44,710 bases of DNA from a virus. Positions within the stretch are counted from its first letter, which is position 1. Every line of letters starts with the position of its first letter. The stretch lies in the UHGV virus genome UHGV-0061377. The stretch is one strand, 5' to 3'. Below, one piece after another: positions 1 to 17,606 of the stretch. A model generated the notes under the pieces. The model was given only the letters and a program-made list of their open reading frames with translations. It did no database searches and was not told the DNA's origin. Both the position numbers and the translations under genes were made by a program.

Positions 1-3
1 ATC

Positions 4-39
4 TTCCCCAAAACTTTCCCCAAAACCCTTCCCAAAAAC
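4..39. repeat. Three tandem direct repeats (TTCCCCAAAAC-like, period ~12 bp) just past the integrase 3' end; candidate arm-type Int-binding sites of the attL P' arm
   Basis: Seen in sequence: ttccccaaaac / tttccccaaaac / cttcccaaaaac at about 4-14, 15-26, 28-39. Position next to int matches the lambda P' arm layout. The core att site is not identifiable and is probably left of the window. Confidence 0.3.
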
Positions 40-49
40 TGGCTATTTT

Positions 50-1192
50 CTATGCTGTTTTGATATCTACGATAATCCAGTCTTTACCACGATCATCATT
101 GTATCGGTCGGTCATTTTTCTGGATTTATGACCTAACAACTTTTGCGTATCCAGACCCTGTTCCCGATATAACCGTTCTGACAGAGATCGCTGCTCATGA
201 AATGTGGGCGCAGTTCCTTGCTCCCATTTTATGCCACATTTTTCCCTGGCCTTTTTAAAAGCCGTTGTCAGAGTATTTGCAGAAACCTGGTCTCCTCTGT
301 TTGCTTGAGAGGTAGTGTGATGGTAATGGACCAGATATTTACTAACAACAGCATCCCTGCACTGAGATATAACTTCACGAAGGGTAATATTCAGAGCATC
401 GCATTTCAGGTTAAGCGGAATAGCAAGTTTTGAACCGGTTTTTTCCTGAGTAATGTGCAACATGTCGTCCCAGATATCAGAGAATTTCAAATTGCAGATA
501 TCGCCTAAACGTTGTCCAGTGACAAGAGCAAGTAGCATCCCGCATTTTAAATAGGGCTGCCGTCTGCTTACGCTGTCAAATATTGCCTGCCATTCGGGCA
601 GTGATAATCTTTGGCGGTTTACTCGATTTCGCGGTTGTTTTGTTGCCTGCGCTGGGTTAAATCCTGGCGGAACATGTCCTGCGTGTTGTGCTTCTTTGAA
701 GACGTCGATCAACACCATTCTCACGACTTGCGCCATCCTGTTATGACCTTCAGCCTTTACAGCATCAATTATTTCGGCAATATCAAGTGCGGTAATATCC
801 TTGAGGTGTTGCATTCCACAATGCTCACGGAAAAGACGAATGGGTTTGCCTTTTTGCCGATAGGAGTTGGGTCTTAGTTCATTATGTTGCAGCCTGTCCT
901 CCTGGATAGAAATATATTTATCAAGCCATTCTGTCACCGTAATGTCTGAGCGCCTGCCTTTCATTCTTTCCAGACGCTCATTGACGCTTAATATTTGTCG
1001 AGTACGTTGTTCAGCAATAATGGTATTTGCTTCAGTAGCAACTTGTTTTGCTTCATTCTCATCAGTTCCTAAGCTATGAAAACGACCGGATAGTGGATGT
1101 TTGTATTGCCAATATACCTTTCCGGTTCGCTTATCTAATTTGCAATATAAATTGGGTATAGAGATTTTGTGAGATCGGGGTCTAGCAGCCAT
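50..1192 (-). CDS. int: Tyrosine-type site-specific integrase (lambda Int family)
   Basis: 380-aa ORF with C-terminal catalytic-domain motifs (HEQRSLSERLY, LLGHKSRKMTDRY). Lies at the prophage left end and overlaps xis, as in lambdoid phages. Not identical to lambda Int. Confidence 0.9.
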   Translation of the reverse strand: MAARPRSHKISIPNLYCKLDKRTGKVYWQYKHPLSGRFHSLGTDENEAKQVATEANTIIAEQRTRQILSVNERLERMKGRRSDITVTEWLDKYISIQEDRLQHNELRPNSYRQKGKPIRLFREHCGMQHLKDITALDIAEIIDAVKAEGHNRMAQVVRMVLIDVFKEAQHAGHVPPGFNPAQATKQPRNRVNRQRLSLPEWQAIFDSVSRRQPYLKCGMLLALVTGQRLGDICNLKFSDIWDDMLHITQEKTGSKLAIPLNLKCDALNITLREVISQCRDAVVSKYLVHYHHTTSQANRGDQVSANTLTTAFKKAREKCGIKWEQGTAPTFHEQRSLSERLYREQGLDTQKLLGHKSRKMTDRYNDDRGKDWIIVDIKTA

Positions 1193-1418
1193 CAGCGATT
1201 ATCCTTTGGAGTTTTGGGTTTGCGTTTATTGGGAGTTGCGGTTCTGCAAGCGTTCCTACAAAACGGGAATTTCGGTCAATCATCCAGTAGCGACCAACTT
1301 TTATAGCGGGTGGGGCCATCATTTTCCCTTGCGCGTATTTTTTCAGAACTCGCTCACTTGGTGCTAAGTCCCCAAATTCTTCTTTAGCCCAGTCCTGTAA
1401 AGTGATTAGTCGAGACAT
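1182..1418 (-). CDS. xis: Excisionase-like small DNA-binding protein
   Basis: 78-aa ORF immediately upstream of int and overlapping it, on the same strand. Position and size fit Xis. Homology not verified. Confidence 0.6.
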   Translation of the reverse strand: MSRLITLQDWAKEEFGDLAPSERVLKKYAQGKMMAPPAIKVGRYWMIDRNSRFVGTLAEPQLPINANPKLQRIIADGC

Positions 1419-1557
1419 TTGTCCTCCTCTTAGCTGCTGAGGGAGTTTGTGACCGATATATCTGACATGATATTAAGCTCATGGCAGGTACATCTCTTGA
1501 CTGGTCATAGAGATAAATTTAATGCTGAGAAATGCAGTATTGAATTTATCAATTTTT

Positions 1558-1797
1558 CTATTTCCTGCGCATGTCACGTAACTTCTTAATGTGTTCTGCC
1601 GTTTCGATCTCTTCTGCTATCCGATCTGCATCAGCTTTATTCACAGGTTCAAAGTCATGATTAAAGCGGAACATGCTGGCGATACATGTTCTGCCTTTTC
1701 GGATGTAGTGAACTTTGTTGTGGGTAGAACGCAGGATTTTGCAGGGAGTGCCGTGGTGGTCGACGTACCAGGTGTTAGGGTCAATCACTCTGAACAT
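1558..1797 (-). CDS. Hypothetical early-left-operon protein
   Basis: 79-aa ORF co-oriented with neighbours and overlapping the next ORF by a few codons. No family recognised. Confidence 0.4.
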   Translation of the reverse strand: MFRVIDPNTWYVDHHGTPCKILRSTHNKVHYIRKGRTCIASMFRFNHDFEPVNKADADRIAEEIETAEHIKKLRDMRRK

Positions 1798-2110
1798 TCT
1801 TGACCTTGTGTTGTGCGGATTGATATTCAGTGCTGATATTCACCTTTATAGCGAACACCTTTACCGGTTTATCGCCAAAGTGCGGATGTGTGATTGTCTT
1901 CACTTCATATCCGTCATACGGAACATCAATTCTGCGACTGGAATCGTCGCGCTTCGGATATCCCTTTGTGATAATCAGGCGGTCATATTCCCGGAACATA
2001 ATTCGCTTATTCCAGTAGTCATTACACAAGCGATACTCTTCCGTTTTCTCTCCGCGAATCATGGAATCGAAGTATTCACTTTTAACAGCAAGTTGCAGGT
2101 TAGCCATCAC
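1781..2110 (-). CDS. Hypothetical early-left-operon protein
   Basis: 109-aa ORF, translationally coupled to the TraR-like gene upstream (overlap at 2107-2110). Confidence 0.45.
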   Translation of the reverse strand: MMANLQLAVKSEYFDSMIRGEKTEEYRLCNDYWNKRIMFREYDRLIITKGYPKRDDSSRRIDVPYDGYEVKTITHPHFGDKPVKVFAIKVNISTEYQSAQHKVKNVQSD

Positions 2111-2328
2111 TTAATCCCCCTTTGTTTGCGGATAAGCTCCAGATCTTGCTGGCAACTGGCGCAAGTCCGACAACCCTGAACGGCCAGTCGTCTTCGTTCA
2201 TCTATCGGATCGCCACACTCACAACAATGAGTGGCAGATACAGCCAGGTGGTTCAGGCGGCGCATTTTTATTGCTGTGTTGCGCTGTAATTCTTCTATTT
2301 CTGATGCTGAATCAATGATGTCTGCCAT
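2107..2328 (-). CDS. TraR/DksA-family C4 zinc-finger protein
   Basis: 73 aa with CxxC-(17)-CxxC (CCECGDPID...CRTCASCQ), the pattern of phage TraR-like proteins. Confidence 0.7.
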   Translation of the reverse strand: MADIIDSASEIEELQRNTAIKMRRLNHLAVSATHCCECGDPIDERRRLAVQGCRTCASCQQDLELIRKQRGIK

Positions 2329-2383
2329 CTTCCATTAATCCCTGAATTGTTGGTTAATACGCTTGAGGGTGAATGCGAACAAT

Positions 2384-2404
2384 AAAAAAGGAGCCTGTAG
2401 CTCC
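2384..2404 (-). terminator. Candidate intrinsic terminator (minus strand)
   Basis: Inverted repeat ggagc-ctgta-gctcc followed on the minus strand by a T-run (plus-strand aaaaaa at 2384-2389). The stem is only 5 bp. Confidence 0.35.
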
Positions 2405-2426
2405 CTGAGGATTTTGCTTTTCATGT

Positions 2427-2642
2427 TCACCGTTCCTTAAAGGCGCCGTTTAACATACCGATTGCCAGACTTAAATGAGTCGGTGTGAATCCCATCAGCG
2501 TTACCGTTTCGCGGTGCTTCTTCAGTACGCTACGGCAAATGTCATCGACGTTTTTATCCGGAAACTGCTGTCTGGCTTTTTTGATTTCAGAATTAGCCTG
2601 ACGGGCAATACTGCGAAGGGCGTTTTCTTGCTGAGGTGTCAT
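2427..2642 (-). CDS. Hypothetical protein
   Basis: ORF trimmed to the internal ATG (MTPQQENALRS...); the longer 104-aa reading would overlap the methyltransferase gene. Confidence 0.4.
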   Translation of the reverse strand: MTPQQENALRSIARQANSEIKKARQQFPDKNVDDICRSVLKKHRETVTLMGFTPTHLSLAIGMLNGAFKER

Positions 2643-2718
2643 TGAACAAGTCCCATGTCGGCAAGCATAAGCACACAGAATATGAAGCCCGCTGCCAGAA
2701 AAATGCATTCCGTGGTTG

Positions 2719-3276
2719 TCATGCAGCCTCCCGACGGGCAAGAATCCTTGAGCCGAACGCCATCAACTCGCCACGATCAACGGTCGTAAAGTGGCAGTGT
2801 GTACGGGGGTATGGGTGCCAGATAATGAGCATCGAGCCTTTATTATTTCCACTCACGGGTTTCTCGGTGAGTGGGTTAATAAATGCCAGTCGTCCTGCTG
2901 TGATGAATCTGACCTCACTGGCGGTTTGTATCGCTTCATGAAACCATCCGACAGACGTGTCAGCAGGCAATAACATTACACATCCCACACTACTGAATTT
3001 GTTTTCGGTGGCTGCCTTTTTCACAAAAGGGGAAATATTGCTGTATGGTGGATTCAGCCAGACATAACCAGAGGCATATCCCATTGCTTCAGGCCATGAA
3101 GTGGTTAATGTGTTCTGCTCCTGTGAGATAAAAAGCCGACATAGCCGGTTTTTTTCGTTGGCTGCAGCATCAAGTTGAAAAACGAACTCTGCATTCAGCG
3201 CAGCAAAAATCTCTGGTGGTGTGCGCCAGCTGTCGCGATGTTCGGCAGGAGTATTGCTTCCGGTGAAATCAGTCAT
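2719..3276 (-). CDS. Phage DNA N6-adenine methyltransferase (Dam-like)
   Basis: 185 aa with the catalytic NPPY motif (WLNPPYS) and an N-terminal region typical of small phage Dam-family methyltransferases. Confidence 0.75.
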   Translation of the reverse strand: MTDFTGSNTPAEHRDSWRTPPEIFAALNAEFVFQLDAAANEKNRLCRLFISQEQNTLTTSWPEAMGYASGYVWLNPPYSNISPFVKKAATENKFSSVGCVMLLPADTSVGWFHEAIQTASEVRFITAGRLAFINPLTEKPVSGNNKGSMLIIWHPYPRTHCHFTTVDRGELMAFGSRILARREAA

Positions 3277-3427
3277 ACAGCCCCCCGTTTATTATTTATC
3301 TCCTCAGCCAGCCGCTGCGCTTTCAGTGGATTTCTGATAACAGAAAGGCCGGGAAATACCCAGCCTCGCTTCGTAACGGAGTGGACGAAAGGGATCACGC
3401 CTACCCGGATATTATCGTGAGGATGCT

Positions 3428-4108
3428 TCATCGCCATTGCTCCCCAAATACAAAACCAATTTCAGCCAGTGCCTCGTCCATTTTTTCGATGAACTCCGGC
3501 ACCATCTCGTCAAAACTCGCTATGTACTTTTCATCCCGCTCAACCACGACATAATGCAGGCCTTCACGCTTCATACGCGGGTCATAGTTGGAAAAGTACC
3601 AGGCATCTTTTCGTGTCACCCACATGCTGTACTGCACCTGGGCCATGTAAGCCGACTTTATGGCCTCGAAACCACCGAGCCGAAACTTCATGAAATCCCG
3701 GGAGGTAAACGGGCATTTCAGCTCAAGGCCATTGCCGTCACTGCATAAACCATCGGGAGAGCAGGCGGTGCGCATACTTTCGTCGCGATAGATGATCGGG
3801 GATTCAGTAACATTCACGCCGGAAGTGAATTCAAACAGGGTTCTGGCGTCGTTCTCGTACTGTTTTCCCCAGGCCAGCGCCTTAGCATTAACTTCCGGAG
3901 CCACACCGGTGCAAACCTCAGCCAGCAGGGTGTGGAAGTAGGACATTTTCATGTCAGGCCACTTCTTTCCGGAGCGGGGTTTTGCTATCACGTTGTGAAC
4001 TTCTGAAGCGGTGATGACGCCGAGCCGTAATTTGTGCCACGCATCATCCCCCTGTTCGACAGCTCTCACATCGATCCCGGTACGCTGCAGGATAATGTCC
4101 GGTGTCAT
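3428..4108 (-). CDS. exo: Lambda exonuclease (Red-alpha)
   Basis: 226-aa product is near-identical over its full length to lambda Exo as I recall it ([40 protein letters not shown]...). Confidence 0.95.
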
Positions 4109-4890
4109 GCTGCCACCTTCTGCTCTGCGGCTTTCTGTTTCAGGAATCCAAGAGCTTTTACTGCTTCGGCCTGTGTCAGTTCTGACGATGCACGAATGTC
4201 GCGGCGAAATATCTGGGAACAGAGTGGCAATAAGTCGTCATCCCATGTTTTATCCAGGGCGATCAGCAGAGTGTTAATCTCCTGCATGGTTTCATCGTTA
4301 ACCGGAGTGATGTCGCGTTCCGGCTGGCGTTCTGCAGTGTATGCAGTATTTTCGACAATGCGCTCGGCTTCATCCTTGTCATAGATACCAGCAAATCCGA
4401 AGGCCAGACGGGCACACTGAATCATGGCTTTATGCCGTAACATTCGTTTGGGATGCGACTGCCACGGCCCCGTGATTTCTCTGCCTTCGCGAGTTTTGAA
4501 TGGTTCGCGGCGGCATTCATCCATCCATTCGGTAACGCAGATCGGATGATTACGGTCCTTGCGGTAAATCCGGCATGTACAGGATTCATTGTCCTGTTCA
4601 AAGTCCATGCCGTCAAACTGCTGGTTTTCGTTGATGATGCGGGACCAGCCATCAACGCCCACCACCGGAACGATGCCGTTCTGCTTATCAGGGAAGGCGT
4701 AAATTTCTTTCGTCCACGGATTAAGGCCGTATTGGTTGGCGACGATCAGCAATGCGATGAACTGCGCATCGCTGGCATCGCCTTTAAATGCTGTCTGGCG
4801 AAGAGTGGTGATCAGTTCCTGTGGGTCGACAGAATCCATGCCGACACGTTCAGCCAGCTTCCCTGCCAGCGTTGCGAGTGCTGTACTCAT
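4105..4890 (-). CDS. bet: Recombination protein Bet (Red-beta, single-strand annealing)
   Basis: 261 aa, near-identical to lambda Bet; overlaps exo by 4 nt as in lambda. Confidence 0.95.
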
Positions 4891-4895
4891 CCGTT

Positions 4896-5192
4896 TTATA
4901 CCTCTGAATCAATATCAACCTGATGGTGAGCAATGGTTTCAACCATGTACCGGATGTGTTCTGCCATGCGCTCCTGAAACTCAACATCGTCATCAAACGC
5001 ACGGGTAATGGCTTTTTTGCTGGCCCCGTGGCGTTGCAAATGATCGATGCATAGCGATTCAAACAGGTGCTGGGGCAGGCCTTTTTCCATGTCGTCTGCC
5101 AGTTCTGCCTCTTTCTCTTCACGGGCGATCTGCTGGTAGTGACGCGCCCAGCTTTGAGCCTCAAGACGATCCTGAATGTAATAAGCGTTCAT
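4896..5192 (-). CDS. gam: Gam, RecBCD inhibitor
   Basis: 98 aa ([60 protein letters not shown]...), matching the short form of lambda Gam. Confidence 0.92.
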
Positions 5193-5267
5193 GGCTGAAC
5201 TCCTGAAAATGGCTGTGAAAATATCGCCCGCTAAATGCCAGGCTGATTAGGAAAACAGGAAAGGGGA

Positions 5268-5558
5268 TTAGTGATTCAGGCCGTTACCGCGTCCGTCGAG
5301 AAAAACTTCCACGAGCAAATCACGGGTATAAGTGCGCTCGATGCCGCGATGCAGATAAAGCCGTCCGCGTAAATTAGCTGATGCAGTCCAGGTACCATCT
5401 TTGTGTTTGACCAGCATTCCTGGCATGACCGCACCTCGATTAACGGTCTGCGTTCCGTAATGTTGATGAACCATAAAAACTCCTGCCCGTAAGCTGGGCT
5501 GCTGAACATATAGAGACTTCTGCGCGTATTCAGGCGGTGGATGGCCGCCGGTTGTCAT
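5268..5558 (-). CDS. Hypothetical protein in the kil/cIII position downstream of pL
   Basis: 96-aa reading from an internal ATG with a GAGG about 11 nt upstream. The longer 136-aa reading starts at TTG. No lambda Kil or CIII similarity recognised. Confidence 0.4.
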   Translation of the reverse strand: MTTGGHPPPEYAQKSLYVQQPSLRAGVFMVHQHYGTQTVNRGAVMPGMLVKHKDGTWTASANLRGRLYLHRGIERTYTRDLLVEVFLDGRGNGLNH

Positions 5559-5751
5559 AACTAAGCCGCCTCGTTGAAGCGACTGAGGTATGAGGTGTTG
5601 AGTTGATTTCAGCTGGTCACACCGACGTTCACACGTCCGTTTCACCCCTCGCACTCCCCGGAGCCTGCTGAAATTCAAGCTGCGGATCTAAGCGGTCATC
5701 GCAACGGTGAATCAGGTGGTTGCCGTATCGTTGTGTTGTTGCGATGAACTC

Positions 5752-5806
5752 ATTTAAAACTATGGTTGTTTTACCGTCAACAACAAAAGTTGTTTCATTG
5801 GTTGTT
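5752..5806 (-). promoter_or_regulatory. OL-like operator with candidate pL promoter
   Basis: Near-palindrome ATGGTTGTT-N8-AACAACAAA at 5762-5787, paralogous to the OR palindrome, plus an extra GGTTGTT half-site at 5800-5806. On the minus strand, TTGACG (5780-5775), 17-bp spacer, TTAAAT (5757-5752). Confidence 0.5.
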
Positions 5807-5920
5807 TTAGATATAACTGGTTGTATTTAGGATGGATTTATTTTGTGACTTGCATCGCATAGCGATAACTGAAGCGGGGGGTATGGTGGTTTTTTGAACG
5901 GTGTGTGATGAGGGGAGGCA

Positions 5921-5946
5921 AAAGAAAACCCGGCACGACGGCCGGG
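5921..5946 (-). terminator. Intrinsic terminator ending the cI-side operon
   Basis: GC-rich hairpin cccggc-acgacg-gccggg at 5929-5946, followed on the minus strand by TTTTCTTT. Lies directly after the stop of the membrane-protein gene. Confidence 0.6.
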
Positions 5947-5954
5947 GAGGGGGG

Positions 5955-6461
5955 TCATTTTAATCTATCAAGGAGTGACTCTCTTTCCTTCTTCTCTGAT
6001 TCTCTTCGGTTTAATAACGCTTTAAACTCTTGAAGCTCAACCATTATTTTATGAACGAATACACTGGTATAGAGAGAAATAAAGAGTAATCCACCTGAAA
6101 TTTTTAAGACCCTGAAGAGTAGGGCTTGATCATTTGTGCTTGCTATTAACCCCAAGATTACAAACAAAGTTGAAAATACATAGAAAGCTAATAATAAAAC
6201 CAATTTCAGTCTCTTGGATTTGACTATTGGCACTAATCGCCTAACCTCACTAGGGGTTAAAGACGAGTGGTCATTGGCCTCATTTGCCTTAAAAATGGCT
6301 TGTATACAATATGATAATGGCAATTGCATGAGTCCAACCACAGCCCACGGAGCAGTTAGGACAACACCCGGTGTAATATAGCCCAATGCTGACTTGAACA
6401 AAAAGTAACCAGCAAAATAGAAGACCAACATACCAATAAGGTGGATGATGTTCGATTTCAT
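5955..6461 (-). CDS. Small integral membrane protein (4 predicted TM helices, charged coiled-coil-like C-terminal tail); distal gene of the repressor-linked module
   Basis: 168 aa. Hydrophobic segments at roughly residues 5-22, 29-57, 85-108 and 119-136, then a tail rich in E/K/R (NRRESEKKERESLLDRLK). AT-rich codon usage. No family recognised. Confidence 0.65.
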   Translation of the reverse strand: MKSNIIHLIGMLVFYFAGYFLFKSALGYITPGVVLTAPWAVVGLMQLPLSYCIQAIFKANEANDHSSLTPSEVRRLVPIVKSKRLKLVLLLAFYVFSTLFVILGLIASTNDQALLFRVLKISGGLLFISLYTSVFVHKIMVELQEFKALLNRRESEKKERESLLDRLK

Positions 6462-6482
6462 TATCGCCCTCCTTTTGGTAGG

Positions 6483-7109
6483 TTATTTTGCAACCAATTC
6501 TCCGGCATCAAGTTTTGAGAACAGCCACTTATGCATTTTTAAGAATAAATCATTTTCATCAATAATGCCATTGTTATATTCAACGCTAATTTTTCCGGAT
6601 AATTTTATCTCTTTTCCCGTTATTTCCCCACCGCCTTGAAGTTTGATGCTAATATCATCCTCATCTAGATGTCGTAGTGAGGTAGCAATACTGTCTATAA
6701 CAGCTTGACCGCTATCATTTGTTTTTCTGAAGTATGTAATCTCGAGGCTTACTTGTAAATTGGCCTCATCTAATGAATCTTTAATGTTTATATCATTTGC
6801 CCAGTTATCGCCAAAAAATGCTTTTAGTAGCGCACCTCCTTTCCCTATTGGGCGGTATTTTATTGTCTTCACCGAACCATTTGAAAAGGAGGGTGTTTGG
6901 TTCTCTGAATTTTTAACTTCTGAAGTAATGGGTAATCCACCAATTTTTATGCTCTTGGCTGGTGCTTTCTCCATTTTTTTCATCGTTTCTTCGGATGGCT
7001 TATCTTGAAGCATTAACACAGATTCTTTTTCATCTGTGAATGTATTAATTAGCCAATTCAAATGCGCCTCAAGCTCCCTTGCTCGAAGCGATGTGGATTG
7101 AACGATCAT
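6483..7109 (-). CDS. Hypothetical soluble protein; middle gene of the repressor-linked module
   Basis: 208-aa ORF, AT-rich, rich in K/N/I/E/D. No obvious Shine-Dalgarno. The reading frame stays open upstream to the poly-A tract of the preceding ORF. Confidence 0.55.
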   Translation of the reverse strand: MIVQSTSLRARELEAHLNWLINTFTDEKESVLMLQDKPSEETMKKMEKAPAKSIKIGGLPITSEVKNSENQTPSFSNGSVKTIKYRPIGKGGALLKAFFGDNWANDINIKDSLDEANLQVSLEITYFRKTNDSGQAVIDSIATSLRHLDEDDISIKLQGGGEITGKEIKLSGKISVEYNNGIIDENDLFLKMHKWLFSKLDAGELVAK

Positions 7110-7147
7110 GACATGGTTGTTTAGTACACCAAAATATAAAATTGAAT

Positions 7148-7504
7148 CTACAAACTCTCTTTTTTGTCACTACGTTTATCTCCATCAATAATTATATCAT
7201 TAGACGTGATGGAGTTAATGTCATAAAATTTAACATTATCACTAAGCTCTAATAGAGACTGGCTTTTGTCTTTTTCAAATAAAACCAGTTGCCCAAAAAG
7301 TATAGTTTTGTATGTGTCGCTTTTATTTAAGAAACGATACCCCGAATTTTCATCTGAAGGTGTTATTTTTTCTTGTCTACTAAGTACTTTTTCTGCAACG
7401 CCGCCCTCACCTATAATACTAAGTAGTATGTTTTGTAATGATGATTTGCTGTGTGGGATTACTGCTTTTTTATAATGAACGACTTTTTGTCTGTTATCTT
7501 TCAT
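7148..7504 (-). CDS. Hypothetical protein; first gene downstream of cI in the module (possibly the N-terminal part of a frameshifted longer gene)
   Basis: 118-aa ORF, AT-rich. Ends 6 codons after an A6 tract (plus-strand T6 at 7160-7165). Confidence 0.5.
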   Translation of the reverse strand: MKDNRQKVVHYKKAVIPHSKSSLQNILLSIIGEGGVAEKVLSRQEKITPSDENSGYRFLNKSDTYKTILFGQLVLFEKDKSQSLLELSDNVKFYDINSITSNDIIIDGDKRSDKKESL

Positions 7505-7561
7505 TGCTATAGTCCAACTAGTATTGAATAAATAAACACAGTAAAGACATAAAAATTTCTT

Positions 7562-7591
7562 ATAGCTACCGATAACGTAATCGGTAGCTAT
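7562..7591. promoter_or_regulatory. Perfect 12-bp-stem hairpin between cI and the downstream module
   Basis: atagctaccgat-aacgta-atcggtagctat. On the minus-strand transcript it is followed by AAGAAAUUUUU. Candidate terminator, attenuator or protein-binding site. Confidence 0.5.
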
Positions 7592-7626
7592 TACAAATCA
7601 ACCAAAGGTAATTCTTTACATACTAC

Positions 7627-8316
7627 CTACCCATGCTTCCTGTAGGTCTGCGGCATGCTCCCAATAACTTTCCCGAAGATAAACACCCGGTTCATCTCGT
7701 CTTTCTCAATTGGGTCCCACGGCGAGTAGCTCTTGTTATCAGAGATAACCAGTAGCTTATCCTTCATCATTTGCAGGCGCTTTACATGGGCTGTGTCGTC
7801 GTACAGAAACGCATAGATACCATCACCGTCGAAAGATTTAACTGTGATATCAACGAACAGCAGATCACCTGGTTCGATCGTTCCTGACATGCTGTCACCA
7901 CGCACGTTAATGATGCGGATATTTTCCGCCTTCCTACCATCGAACATGTGACGAGCATCGTCAAACGAGTACTCAACCGAGCGTAGAACTTCTACAAACT
8001 CACGGTTGATGACTCCCGGCCCAGCACTGACTTCTATATCAAGAACGTCAATCTTAAAGTATTTGGAATGGCTGACAGTTGATAGTATTGGTTGCACTGT
8101 ACTGTCTGACATATTTCCAACGCCAGAAGATAACCATTCTGCGCGCACACCCAAAGCGTTCGCGATCTCCACGATTTTAGTTGTTTGGTTAGCTTTCCCT
8201 GTTTCGATTTTCTGAATAGCAGCTTGGCTAACCCCGACCAAATCCCCAAGCGCCTTTTGTGTAAGGCCTCGCGCTAATCTGGCTTCTTTAAGTCTTTCTG
8301 AGAGTGTTGTTTTCAT
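7627..8316 (-). CDS. cI: CI-type prophage repressor (N-terminal HTH_XRE, C-terminal S24 LexA-like autopeptidase)
   Basis: Trimmed to the internal ATG (MKTTLSERLKEARLARGLTQKALG...). HTH at the N-terminus; S24 Ser/Lys dyad context (VRGDSMSGTIEPGDLL ... HVKRL). Divergent from the cro-like gene across the operator. Confidence 0.9.
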   Translation of the reverse strand: MKTTLSERLKEARLARGLTQKALGDLVGVSQAAIQKIETGKANQTTKIVEIANALGVRAEWLSSGVGNMSDSTVQPILSTVSHSKYFKIDVLDIEVSAGPGVINREFVEVLRSVEYSFDDARHMFDGRKAENIRIINVRGDSMSGTIEPGDLLFVDITVKSFDGDGIYAFLYDDTAHVKRLQMMKDKLLVISDNKSYSPWDPIEKDEMNRVFIFGKVIGSMPQTYRKHG

Positions 8317-8357
8317 AGTCCAAATGTACAACCAAGGTTTTATTCCATCAAACGAAA

Positions 8358-17110: not shown

Positions 17111-17469
17111 ATACTTACTGCATCACACTACCCTGGCCGCCGAGCAATAATCGCTATTACCGCCATAATCGCGGACGCACGCATATCAGCGCAGAGGGGC
17201 AGGCATACCGCGATAATGTCGCCCGAATCATTAAAAACGCAATGCTGGATATCGGCCTGGCTATTCCTGTGAAAATCAGCATTGAGTGCCACATGCCGGA
17301 TCGCCGTCGCCGTGACCTTGATAATCTGCAAAAGGCCGCTTTTGACGCACTCACCAAAGCAGGTTTCTGGCTGGATGATGCTCAGGTCGTTGATTACCGC
17401 GTTGTGAAGATGCCCGTTACCAAAGGTGGGAAGCTGGAGCTGACTATCACTGAACTGGGAGATGAATGA
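17107..17469 (+). CDS. rusA: Holliday junction resolvase RusA
   Basis: 120 aa, near-identical to E. coli prophage RusA ([50 protein letters not shown]...). Confidence 0.92.
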
Positions 17470-17606
17470 TGTTTGAGTCTTATATGGCAGAACGTCTTCG
17501 CCGCCGCTGGGTGCGCCTGCGCTTATATCGTTTTCCTAGTTCTGTTTTGACCGATTACCGGATACTGAAGAATTACGCCAAAACACTGAAAGGAGCTGCC
17601 GCATGA
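17466..17606 (+). CDS. ylcG: YlcG-like small protein
   Basis: 46-aa ORF ([46 protein letters not shown]) between rusA and Q, overlapping both. Confidence 0.5.

What the first reader, a model, noticed from the sequence alone, without database searches (positions are those of the whole stretch)
7105..7170. Homopolymer A6 tract at the junction of the 118-aa and 208-aa ORFs: a single-base insertion would fuse them into one ~338-aa protein
Seen in sequence: the 118-aa ORF ends 6 codons after an A6 run (plus-strand T6 at 7160-7165). The 208-aa ORF has no recognisable Shine-Dalgarno, and its frame is stop-free from the A-tract to its ATG at 7109; I translated this by hand as ..DKKRRRFVDSILYFGVLNNHVMIVQS.. 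after adding one A. Inference: the two ORFs may be a single gene that is frameshifted here, through a pseudogenising mutation, a sequencing or assembly error at the homopolymer, slipped-strand phase variation, or programmed frameshifting. Alternatively they are two real genes and the open upstream frame is chance, since the stop-free stretch is only 12 codons.
Basis: partly seen in the sequence, partly recalled or inferred. Interest (0 to 1): 0.5.

Follow-up and report, generated by a model that had tools for sequence, protein, structure and literature searches.

The report
Frameshifted RexA-like prophage gene
The two small ORFs are the halves of one 340-aa prophage gene, a structural look-alike of phage lambda's RexA exclusion protein, broken by loss of one A from an A7 run; this is an ordinary, recurrent inactivating mutation, not a programmed or switchable frameshift.

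Summary
The minus strand has an A6 run at window 7160-7165, the 118-aa ORF stops three sense codons later, and the 208-aa ORF's frame is open from the run to its ATG (19 codons, not 12). In phage Perceval and 41 complete E. coli genomes the run is A7 and the locus is one 1023-nt gene (340 aa). Full-length single-ORF homologs form a family of about 790 clusters. The 17 residues that neither window ORF encodes include six family-invariant positions in a confidently modelled beta-hairpin.

The A6 allele is real and recurrent. It occurs in at least 10 assemblies, several short-read, on three cassette haplotypes and in three prophage backgrounds. No A8 or A5 allele is on record. The same gene is also broken at other homopolymer runs and by IS3 insertions, roughly 7% of alleles in all. 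The run is not conserved in more distant orthologs, and no frameshift-stimulating signals are present. Slippage-driven pseudogenisation is therefore the best explanation.

The parts
6483..7504 (-). Whole RexA-like gene, here a pseudogene 1022 nt long; the intact allele is 1023 nt and encodes 340 aa.
   Evidence: Orthologs are annotated as one CDS: PERCE_43, WP_000654526 and WP_000654525. The only difference in alignment A1 is A7 versus A6. PHROG 3482 matches full length.
7148..7504 (-). 5' fragment: codons 1-115 of the gene, then three out-of-frame codons (E-S-L) and TAG. This is the 118-aa ORF.
   Evidence: The exact product is on 22-24 contigs elsewhere.
7160..7165 (-). A6 homopolymer (T6 on the plus strand), the site of the one-base deletion; intact alleles have A7.
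   Evidence: All ten loci fetched through the 118-aa product have A6; the four fetched intact loci have A7.
7110..7166 (-). 19 codons (QKREFVDSILYFGVLNNHV) in the downstream frame, between the in-frame TGA at 7169-7167 and ATG 7109. They are coding in the intact gene and untranslated in the window.
   Evidence: One search gives the frame boundaries. One search shows E117, F118, S121, L123, F125 and H131 are invariant in 43 homologs. One search places beta-strands at 115-128 and 131-135, with pLDDT about 90 from residue 121.
6483..7109 (-). 3' fragment: residues 133-340 of the gene. This is the 208-aa ORF, which starts at an internal Met.
   Evidence: There is no SD before its ATG. Gene callers also produce this ORF for alleles frameshifted elsewhere upstream, such as P0010 and P0013.
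5955..6461 (-). Intact partner gene: a 168-aa four-helix membrane protein (RexB-like role) with a strong SD (AAGGAGG) 6 nt upstream.
   Evidence: Model of four long helices, pLDDT 81. The partner is conserved in distant loci and present in 26 of 26 species-representative loci. SD. Transcribed 81-fold above the prophage background in LF82 (PMC9928086).
7627..8382 (-). cI-like repressor (HTH plus S24 peptidase) immediately upstream on the same strand. This is the maximal ORF; orthologs are annotated at 229-230 aa.
   Evidence: Pfam PF01381 and PF00717. Annotated as CI repressor in Perceval.
7562..7591 (-). Perfect 12-bp hairpin followed by a U-rich run, between cI and the RexA-like gene. It is terminator-like or attenuator-like.
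   Evidence: intergenic fold of -33.2 kcal/mol, z = -3.4, with 0 of 200 shuffles folding as well.
5929..5946 (-). Intrinsic-terminator-like hairpin plus T-run that closes the cassette.

Best explanation
Window 6483-7504 (minus strand) is a single gene for a 340-aa cytoplasmic protein with a lambda-RexA-like fold. It is the first gene of a two-gene, RexAB-type cassette that lies directly downstream of the cI repressor of a lambdoid (Perceval-like) E. coli prophage. In this window the gene is inactivated by loss of one A from an A7 run (A7 to A6), most likely by replication slippage. Translation stops three codons after the run. The 118-aa and 208-aa ORFs are the two fragments, and residues 116-132, a conserved beta-hairpin, are encoded by neither. 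The mutation is a real, heritable allele that has arisen more than once, and it is one of several recurrent ways this gene is lost. By analogy with lambda RexAB, Sbash gp30/31 and P. putida RexABpp, where both partners are required, the exclusion function is probably lost. The membrane partner remains intact and probably still expressed.

Shown here: the single-gene status, the position and nature of the lesion, its recurrence, the fold similarity and the conserved partner. Inferred: the slippage mechanism, the Rex-type function and the loss of function.
For: (1) The window has A6 and the orthologs A7, with everything else in the aligned stretch identical. Phage Perceval and 41 complete E. coli genomes span one extra base and carry two, not three, annotated proteins under the match. 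The loci I fetched each have one 1023-nt CDS.
(2) There are 130 homologs at 98-100% coverage and 790 clusters at 50% identity, nearly all of those listed being 315-370 aa. Of 28 species-representative loci, 26 cover essentially the whole query; L052 (residues 3-266) runs off the end of its contig and L055 matches only residues 300-340.
(3) The lost segment holds six invariant residues and forms strands 115-128 and 131-135 of the model.
(4) The A6 allele is in ten fetched loci, including SPAdes and Logan short-read assemblies. It lies on three cassette haplotypes, two of which have A7 counterparts, and in prophages beside icd, beside the pectinesterase gene and with a third integrase. Window 1-17504 is 100% identical to L008, and four further assemblies carry the same prophage at 99.9% or more, all with A6.
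(5) Other lesions occur in the same gene: G4 to G3, A3 to A2, A5 to A4, the A6 run at nt 134 changed by +1 or -1 (17 and 4 contigs), one contig each at the second A7 and at the T6 run, and IS3 insertions at codons 138 and 190.
(7) Context: the gene lies directly after cI and is followed by a four-helix membrane protein. The pair is conserved in Aeromonas, Pseudomonas and Klebsiella mobile elements and in 26 of 26 loci. The partner's invariant E72-x-R74-R75 loop parallels the essential R70 and D73 loop residues of Sbash gp31 (PMC6426596).
(8) In LF82 cI, the 340-aa gene and the membrane gene are all transcribed, with the membrane gene in large excess (PMC9928086).
Against: No reads were available, so the A6 call in this particular window rests on agreement between assemblies, and L008 may be the same source as the window. 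There is no sequence-level similarity to RexA or RexB: Pfam PF15969 and PF15968 do not hit, and hhalign probability is about 1% or less even with a 98-sequence alignment. The model is only moderate (pLDDT 70.8; residues 190-252 are poor), and the global TM-score to RexA is about 0.3. PADLOC has no model that hits. No experiment shows that this cassette excludes phages. Contig counts reflect clonal spread and sampling, so they are not counts of mutational events.
Confidence: 0.85

Rival explanations
1. Sequencing or assembly error: the strain really has A7, and one A was dropped at the homopolymer.
For: Homopolymer deletions are a classic artefact of nanopore, 454 and Ion Torrent data (established knowledge). 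One A6 locus, L007, is a 5.1-Mb contig and so probably a long-read assembly. I had no reads.
Against: The same A6 allele is present in short-read assemblies (a SPAdes NODE contig and Logan contigs of SRR/ERR runs). It is also present in five assemblies of the same prophage lineage that differ by a few SNPs. Window 1-17504 has no other indel against L008. An artefact would not be inherited along a lineage.
Confidence: 0.05
2. Slipped-strand phase variation: the A run is a contingency tract that switches the RexA-like gene on and off reversibly.
For: The A7 to A6 change has arisen on at least two or three haplotypes. The tract is also kept in the 81%-identical Klebsiella ortholog. Losing a potentially self-toxic sensor could be advantageous under some conditions.
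Against: A run of 7 is short for a contingency locus (established knowledge: these usually have 8-9 or more repeats). No A8 or A5 products are on record against 22-24 contigs for A6. The allele is stable across five isolates of one lineage. The tract is broken in orthologs at 73% identity and below. The gene is hit just as readily at other runs and by IS3, which fits general decay better than a dedicated switch.
Confidence: 0.06
3. Programmed -1 ribosomal frameshifting or transcriptional slippage at the A run makes the full-length protein from the A6 allele.
For: The string AAAAAAG resembles the dnaX slippery heptamer, and E. coli tRNA-Lys slips on A runs (established knowledge). A -1 shift is the direction needed. 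A GGAG lies 14 nt upstream.
Against: The common allele, which is also the one matching every homolog, is in frame. The heptamer is out of phase: the zero-frame codons are AAA AAA preceded by C, not A AAA AAG. The only strong hairpin starts about 69 nt downstream, rather than the usual 5-9 nt. The split arrangement is not conserved in any ortholog. Only trace, unprogrammed slippage is plausible.
Confidence: 0.03
4. Two genuine separate genes of 118 and 208 aa, with the open upstream frame arising by chance.
For: PHROGs holds separate families for the two halves, phrog_29708 and phrog_33638, and gene callers annotate both ORFs.
Against: Those PHROG families are explained by frameshifted alleles in the source genomes. 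The full-length family phrog_3482 exists. Nearly all homologs listed are single full-length proteins. The 17 residues between the fragments are among the most conserved in the family and form the core of a beta-sheet.
Confidence: 0.01

Closest known systems
Phage lambda RexA/RexB exclusion system (Pfam PF15969 and PF15968; RexA structure PDB 8TWQ, PMC11077077)
   Different: There is no detectable sequence or profile similarity. The proteins are larger: 340 versus 279 aa and 168 versus 144 aa. A terminator-like hairpin separates cI from the gene. In LF82 the gene's expression does not track cI across conditions, which suggests separate regulation. Function is untested.
Actinobacteriophage Rex-like systems: Sbash gp30/gp31 and CarolAnn gp44/gp43 (PMC6426596, PMC6426606)
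   Same: These are a larger RexA-like protein (Sbash gp30 is 372 aa) plus a four-TM partner. The partner's central cytoplasmic loop carries essential charged residues (gp31 R70 and D73), and the family here has invariant E72, R74 and R75 in the equivalent loop. The best hit for the partner model in the viral structure library is a 165-aa Sbash protein, probability 0.99, TM about 0.49.
   Different: That structural hit is weak (E 0.066), and I could not verify that the 165-aa protein is gp31. The hosts are Actinobacteria. According to the paper, Sbash gp30 carries the DUF4747 motif it shares with lambda RexA; the protein here hits no Pfam family.
Pseudomonas putida prophage P1 RexABpp, PP_5643/PP_5644 (PMC12894663)
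   Different: Whether PP_5643 and PP_5644 belong to this sequence family could not be determined, because KT2440 was not among the loci recovered. PP_5643 reaches HHpred probability 98% to RexA, whereas this family does not. It may therefore be a different, RexA-closer lineage.
Homopolymer frameshift pseudogenes in prophage accessory genes
   Same: The lesion is a single-base deletion in a short A/T run of an AT-rich (36% GC) accessory gene. Its frequency across runs roughly follows run length, and it is accompanied by IS insertions in other alleles.
   Different: Nothing unusual, except that this particular A7 run accounts for the largest single share of disrupted alleles on record.

Membership tests
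Lambda RexA (PF15969) | Significant sequence or profile match to the RexA family | tested here: not met
   Pfam gives no hit at E <= 1 for the fragments or for ten divergent family members, while lambda RexA itself scores 1e-97. hhalign of the family against a 23-sequence RexA alignment gives probability 0.06%, and about 1% with a 98-sequence alignment.
Lambda RexA (PF15969) | RexA fold (split globular domain plus inserted dimerisation domain, RdgC-like) | tested here: met
RexAB-type two-gene system | Cytoplasmic component immediately followed by a small polytopic membrane partner | tested here: met
   The window's 168-aa partner starts 21 nt after the stop and models as four long helices. Homologous partners occur in Aeromonas, Pseudomonas and Klebsiella and in 26 of 26 species-representative loci.
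RexAB-type two-gene system | Location in the immunity region next to the CI-like repressor | tested here: met
   This holds in the window and its E. coli orthologs, in the Klebsiella ortholog and in a Pseudomonas prophage. It is not universal: a K. aerogenes prophage carries the pair between the lysis genes and Q, and Aeromonas carries it in a P4-like island.
RexAB-type two-gene system | Exclusion of superinfecting phage that needs both genes, and toxicity of the A component through the B component | not testable with these tools
   This needs plaque assays and over-expression tests, as done for lambda, Sbash and P. putida (PMC6426596, PMC12894663).
Lambda RexB (PF15968) | Sequence match to RexB | tested here: not met
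   Pfam gives no hit, and hhalign against lambda RexB gives probability 0.2%.
Lambda RexB (PF15968) | Four transmembrane helices with a conserved cytoplasmic loop | tested here: inconclusive
   The model has four helices, but a simple hydropathy scan clearly supports only three of the segments. The conserved E-x-R-R loop is present in 22 of 26 partners. The best viral structural neighbour is a Sbash 165-aa protein at E 0.066. No dedicated topology predictor was available.
Phase-variable contingency locus | Tract seen in both expanded and contracted lengths in populations, and conserved among orthologs | tested here: not met
   Only A6 and A7 are on record; the A8 and A5 products are absent. 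The tract is broken in orthologs at 73% identity and below. The A6 allele is stable within one prophage lineage.
Programmed -1 ribosomal frameshift (dnaX or IS type) | In-phase X XXY YYZ heptamer, a stimulatory structure 5-9 nt downstream, and the split arrangement conserved in orthologs | tested here: not met
   The zero frame reads C AAA AAA G, so the heptamer is out of phase. The nearest strong hairpin starts about 69 nt downstream. Orthologs are in frame.
P. putida RexABpp (PP_5643/PP_5644) | Sequence homology to PP_5643 and PP_5644 | not tested

The most novel reading that the evidence does not exclude
The lesions may not be neutral decay. The RexA-like sensor gene is knocked out repeatedly and independently (A7 to A6 on several haplotypes, other homopolymer frameshifts, IS3 at two sites, and outright deletion in pOHT76-1_1). 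Meanwhile the downstream membrane gene stays intact, has a strong ribosome-binding site and is among the most highly transcribed prophage genes. This could mean that the sensor is counter-selected, for example through self-toxicity or triggering by resident prophages. It could also mean that the RexB-like protein has a sensor-independent role that keeps it under selection. On that reading the A7 run would act as the main evolutionary off-switch of a widespread, uncatalogued Rex-type defence family.
Probability: 0.15. Interest if true: 0.5.

Novelty: new member of a known kind. Interest (0 to 1): 0.3.

Why it matters
For annotation, the 118-aa and 208-aa hypothetical proteins, and the separate PHROG families built on such fragments, should be merged and flagged as one frameshifted gene.

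Biologically, the useful by-product is the identity of the intact gene. It belongs to a RexA-fold protein plus four-helix membrane partner cassette that sits at the lambda rexAB position. The cassette is present in about a thousand E. coli contigs and in about 790 diverged clusters across Gammaproteobacteria and beyond. It has no Pfam or NCBIfam family, no PADLOC model, and only function-unknown PHROG families. If it is a working Rex-type exclusion system, it is a common prophage defence that current defence finders miss. The natural A6 and IS3 alleles would then be ready-made loss-of-function controls. The frameshift itself is ordinary.

Tried and rejected
- **Pfam, NCBIfam and PADLOC.** Scans of the fragments, the intact protein and the partner gave nothing meaningful. 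Ten divergent family members also gave no Pfam bridge to RexA.
- **PDB sequence searches.** Searches with the single protein and with a 98-sequence profile gave nothing.
- **hhalign against lambda RexA and RexB.** I tried single sequences and a 23-sequence RexA alignment, using both narrow and wide family alignments. The best result was about 1% probability over a collinear 54-column stretch, which is not significant.
- **Literature search by protein accession.** No papers.
- **Placing P. putida PP_5643 in the family.** Cluster names of ten roughly 325-aa members were uninformative. The genome scan recovered 28 loci but not KT2440.
- **afdb50 fold search for the partner.** The library was unavailable. 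The viral library gave only a weak top hit.
- **Promoter scan.** It found 10 sites in the cassette against 6.9 +/- 2.9 expected, which is not informative in 36% GC DNA. I therefore make no claim about an internal promoter beyond the LF82 expression data.
- **Hydropathy segment counter.** My counter for partners in 26 loci over-fragmented the segments. I use only the presence, size and loop-motif results from that call.

Full report
**1. The observation**

On the minus strand the window reads ...AGT GAC AAA AAA GAG AGT TTG TAG..., with the A6 run at 7165-7160 (T6 on the plus strand). The 118-aa ORF (7148-7504) therefore ends three sense codons after the run. The 208-aa ORF (6483-7109) starts at an ATG with no Shine-Dalgarno match. 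Its frame is open for 19 codons upstream, back to a TGA at 7169-7167 that abuts the run. So the downstream frame opens exactly where the upstream frame would need to shift. Inserting one A gives a 340-aa protein reading ...SDKKREFVDSILYFGVLNNHVMIVQS....

**2. One gene, not two**

A megablast of the cassette against 5,426 complete E. coli genomes found 41 full-length matches. All span one base more than the query (four span two more, because of a separate intergenic indel), and all have two rather than three annotated proteins under the match. Phage Perceval shows the same.

In Perceval, E. coli 3-72, 88-3493 and VG35A2 the locus is annotated as one 1023-nt CDS followed by a 507-nt gene for a membrane protein. 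Aligned to the window, the only difference around the junction is A7 versus A6.

A protein search with the intact sequence returned 130 homologs that cover 98-100% of the query as single proteins of 340-398 aa. They range from Klebsiella, Photorhabdus, Serratia and Morganella to Aeromonas, Pseudomonas, Halomonas and Methylobacter. A profile search found 790 clusters at 50% identity, and nearly all of the 150 listed are 315-370 aa. Of 28 species-representative genome loci, 26 cover essentially the whole query; one match (L052) runs off the end of its contig and one (L055) is a short fragment.

In a 43-sequence alignment the junction lies in the best-conserved block of the family. E117, F118, S121, L123, F125 and H131 are invariant, and they all fall in residues 116-132, which neither window ORF encodes. 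In the AlphaFold model these residues form a long beta-hairpin (strands 115-128 and 131-135, pLDDT about 90 from residue 121). The idea of two real genes is refuted. A split protein lacking this hairpin is unlikely to fold.

**3. Error, mutation, switch or recoding?**

*The split products are on record elsewhere.* The exact 118-aa product is on 22-24 contigs and the exact 208-aa product on 25. The intact protein is on more than 1,000 contigs (889 + 111 + 20 + ...).

*The allele recurs in independent assemblies.* Ten loci fetched through the 118-aa product all have A6. They include a SPAdes short-read assembly and several Logan assemblies of short-read runs. They also include prophages integrated beside icd, beside the pectinesterase gene, and with a third integrase.

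*The allele sits on several haplotypes.* At the DNA level the A6 allele lies on three cassette haplotypes. Two of these have A7 counterparts among the intact loci. So the deletion has arisen at least twice, and probably three or more times.

*The allele is inherited.* Window 1-17504 is 100% identical to one of these assemblies (L008). Four other assemblies carry the same prophage at 99.9% identity or more, all with A6. The allele is therefore inherited along a lineage, which argues strongly against an assembly artefact. Without reads I cannot exclude an artefact for the window itself.

*Against a reversible switch.*
- The predicted A8 and A5 products are absent from the 15-billion-protein collection.
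- The run is kept only in the E. coli gene and the 81%-identical Klebsiella ortholog. More distant orthologs break it (AAA AAG AAA, AAA ATT AAA, CAC AGA AGA).
- The gene is also broken elsewhere: a +1 or -1 change in the A6 run at nt 134 (17 and 4 contigs), -1 in the second A7 run at nt 526 (1 contig), -1 in the T6 run at nt 688 (1 contig), G4 to G3, A3 to A2 and A5 to A4 deletions, and IS3 insertions at codons 138 and 190.

By contig count, roughly 7% of alleles are disrupted. Contig counts are not event counts.

*Against programmed recoding.*
- The common allele, which is also the one matching every homolog, is in frame.
- The AAAAAAG string is out of phase with the zero frame (C AAA AAA G).
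- The only strong hairpin begins about 69 nt downstream of the run.

The best reading is an ordinary slippage deletion at the longest kind of homopolymer in an AT-rich gene (36% GC against 51% for the window). It is one of many independent inactivations.

**4. What the gene is**

The neighbourhood is a lambdoid immunity region. A cI-like repressor (HTH plus S24 peptidase) lies immediately upstream on the same strand. A divergent cro-like gene and O/P replication genes follow beyond it, and kil, gam, bet and exo lie downstream. The cassette thus occupies the position of lambda rexA-rexB.

The downstream 168-aa protein models as four long helices (pLDDT 81). Homologous partners follow the gene in an Aeromonas P4-like island, a Pseudomonas prophage (again after an S24 repressor) and a Klebsiella prophage. 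They are also present in 26 of 26 species-representative loci, and 22 of those carry an E-x-R-R motif in the loop between helices 2 and 3. In Sbash gp31, the RexB-like partner of a validated Rex-like system, R70 and D73 in the equivalent loop are essential (PMC6426596). The best viral structural neighbour of the partner model is a 165-aa Sbash protein (probability 0.99, but E 0.066). I could not verify that it is gp31.

In LF82, which carries the intact Perceval prophage, all three genes are transcribed in the lysogen. In stationary LB the normalised values are cI about 78, the 340-aa gene about 27 and the membrane gene about 578, the last being 81-fold above the prophage background (PMC9928086). 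The membrane gene also has a strong AAGGAGG ribosome-binding site, while the 340-aa gene has none. An excess of the membrane partner over the cytoplasmic one is the arrangement I recall for lambda RexB and RexA.

**5. What it is not shown to be**

There is no sequence-level link to RexA or RexB. hhalign of the family against lambda RexA alone, against a 23-sequence RexA alignment, and with a widened 98-sequence family alignment gives at best about 1% probability. The partner against RexB gives 0.2%. I therefore describe the pair as a RexAB-type cassette by fold, architecture and position. It is not a member of PF15969 or PF15968.

**6. Likely consequence in this window**

This part is inference. 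The sensor or DNA-binding component is destroyed. In lambda, Sbash and P. putida both components are required, so exclusion is probably lost. The membrane gene is intact with its own strong translation signals, and in LF82 it has far higher transcript levels than the upstream genes, so it probably remains expressed.

The repeated loss of the first gene with retention of the second is suggestive of counter-selection or of an independent role for the membrane protein. One 43-kb record (pOHT76-1_1) lacks cI and the 340-aa gene but keeps the membrane gene. I rate this at about 15% and did not test it.

**7. Verdict**

The feature is a frameshifted pseudogene caused by a recurrent A7 to A6 slippage deletion. 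It is not a programmed or phase-variable frameshift, and it is unlikely to be an artefact.

The frameshift is ordinary. The modest interest lies in the gene it breaks: a widespread, uncatalogued RexA-fold plus membrane-partner cassette at the lambda rex position. I class it as a new member of a known kind.

Noticed in passing
window 5949-5957 (minus strand: stop codon of the 168-aa membrane gene and the run after it); L007, L009: The TGA stop is followed directly by a poly-C run whose length varies among loci (C6, C7 or C8). In L007 the A of TGA is deleted, and in L009 it is changed to C. Both remove the stop and extend the protein to 217 and 207 aa. A 207-aa form heads a cluster of 28 member sequences. 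Both loci also carry the A6 frameshift upstream.
   Followed up: partly
window 7562-7591 (minus strand), between the cI-like gene and the RexA-like gene: A perfect 12-bp hairpin is followed by a U-rich run, so it looks like a terminator or attenuator (intergenic fold z = -3.4, with 0 of 200 shuffles as stable). Lambda has no such element between cI and rexA as far as I recall. In LF82 the 340-aa gene's expression does not track cI across conditions, which hints at separate regulation.
   Followed up: partly
L003 (E. coli T309.Ta3) 2092-3254, corresponding to window about 7093; proteins P0004, P0006, P0003, P0011: IS3 is inserted in the same gene after codon 138, only about 15 nt downstream of ATG 7109. 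A second IS-type junction with the same 'LILPT' end lies after codon 190. Contig breaks at the same two positions in many draft assemblies suggest these IS alleles are fairly common.
   Followed up: partly
window about 7366-7371 (A6 run, gene nt 134-139) and about 6974-6980 (second A7 run, gene nt 526-532): Other homopolymers in the gene also yield frameshift alleles in public data. The A6 run with +1 gives a 51-aa product on 17 contigs, and with -1 a 46-aa product on 4 contigs. The second A7 run with -1 gives a 185-aa product on 1 contig. The two A7 runs differ greatly in count (22-24 versus 1), probably because of clonal spread.
   Followed up: partly
L006 (E. coli SZQ1 'plasmid' pOHT76-1_1, 43,337 bp, circular): This record is annotated as a plasmid but looks like a lambdoid phage genome (O, P, ren, kil, gam, bet, exo). 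It lacks the cI-like gene and the RexA-like gene and has only a truncated YdaT-family gene, yet it keeps the membrane partner gene intact.
   Followed up: no
window about 10,700-16,000; internal repeats at 12075-12423 and 12432-12780: Going by the identical locus L008, the prophage carries an invasin/intimin-like gene for a 1302-aa protein (IAT_beta, Big_1 and Invasin_D3 repeats, with 349-bp direct repeats 98% identical). An alpha/beta-hydrolase (esterase-like) gene lies next to it, between the P replication gene and the nin region. In L011 the invasin-like gene is split in two.
   Followed up: no
window 7065-7090 (minus strand), inside the gene just after ATG 7109: A 10-bp GC-rich hairpin (CGCTTCGAGC...GCTTGAGGCG) followed by a weak T-run was flagged as terminator-like. 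In the intact gene it is translated (residues SLRARELEAH). In the A6 allele it lies just downstream of the ribosome-free gap and could add to polarity. This is speculative.
   Followed up: no
PHROGs v4: phrog_29708 (119-position profile) and phrog_33638 (221 positions) versus phrog_3482 (344 positions): PHROGs holds separate families that correspond to the two fragments of this gene, alongside the full-length family. Frameshifted alleles have evidently seeded spurious protein families in a reference database.
   Followed up: no
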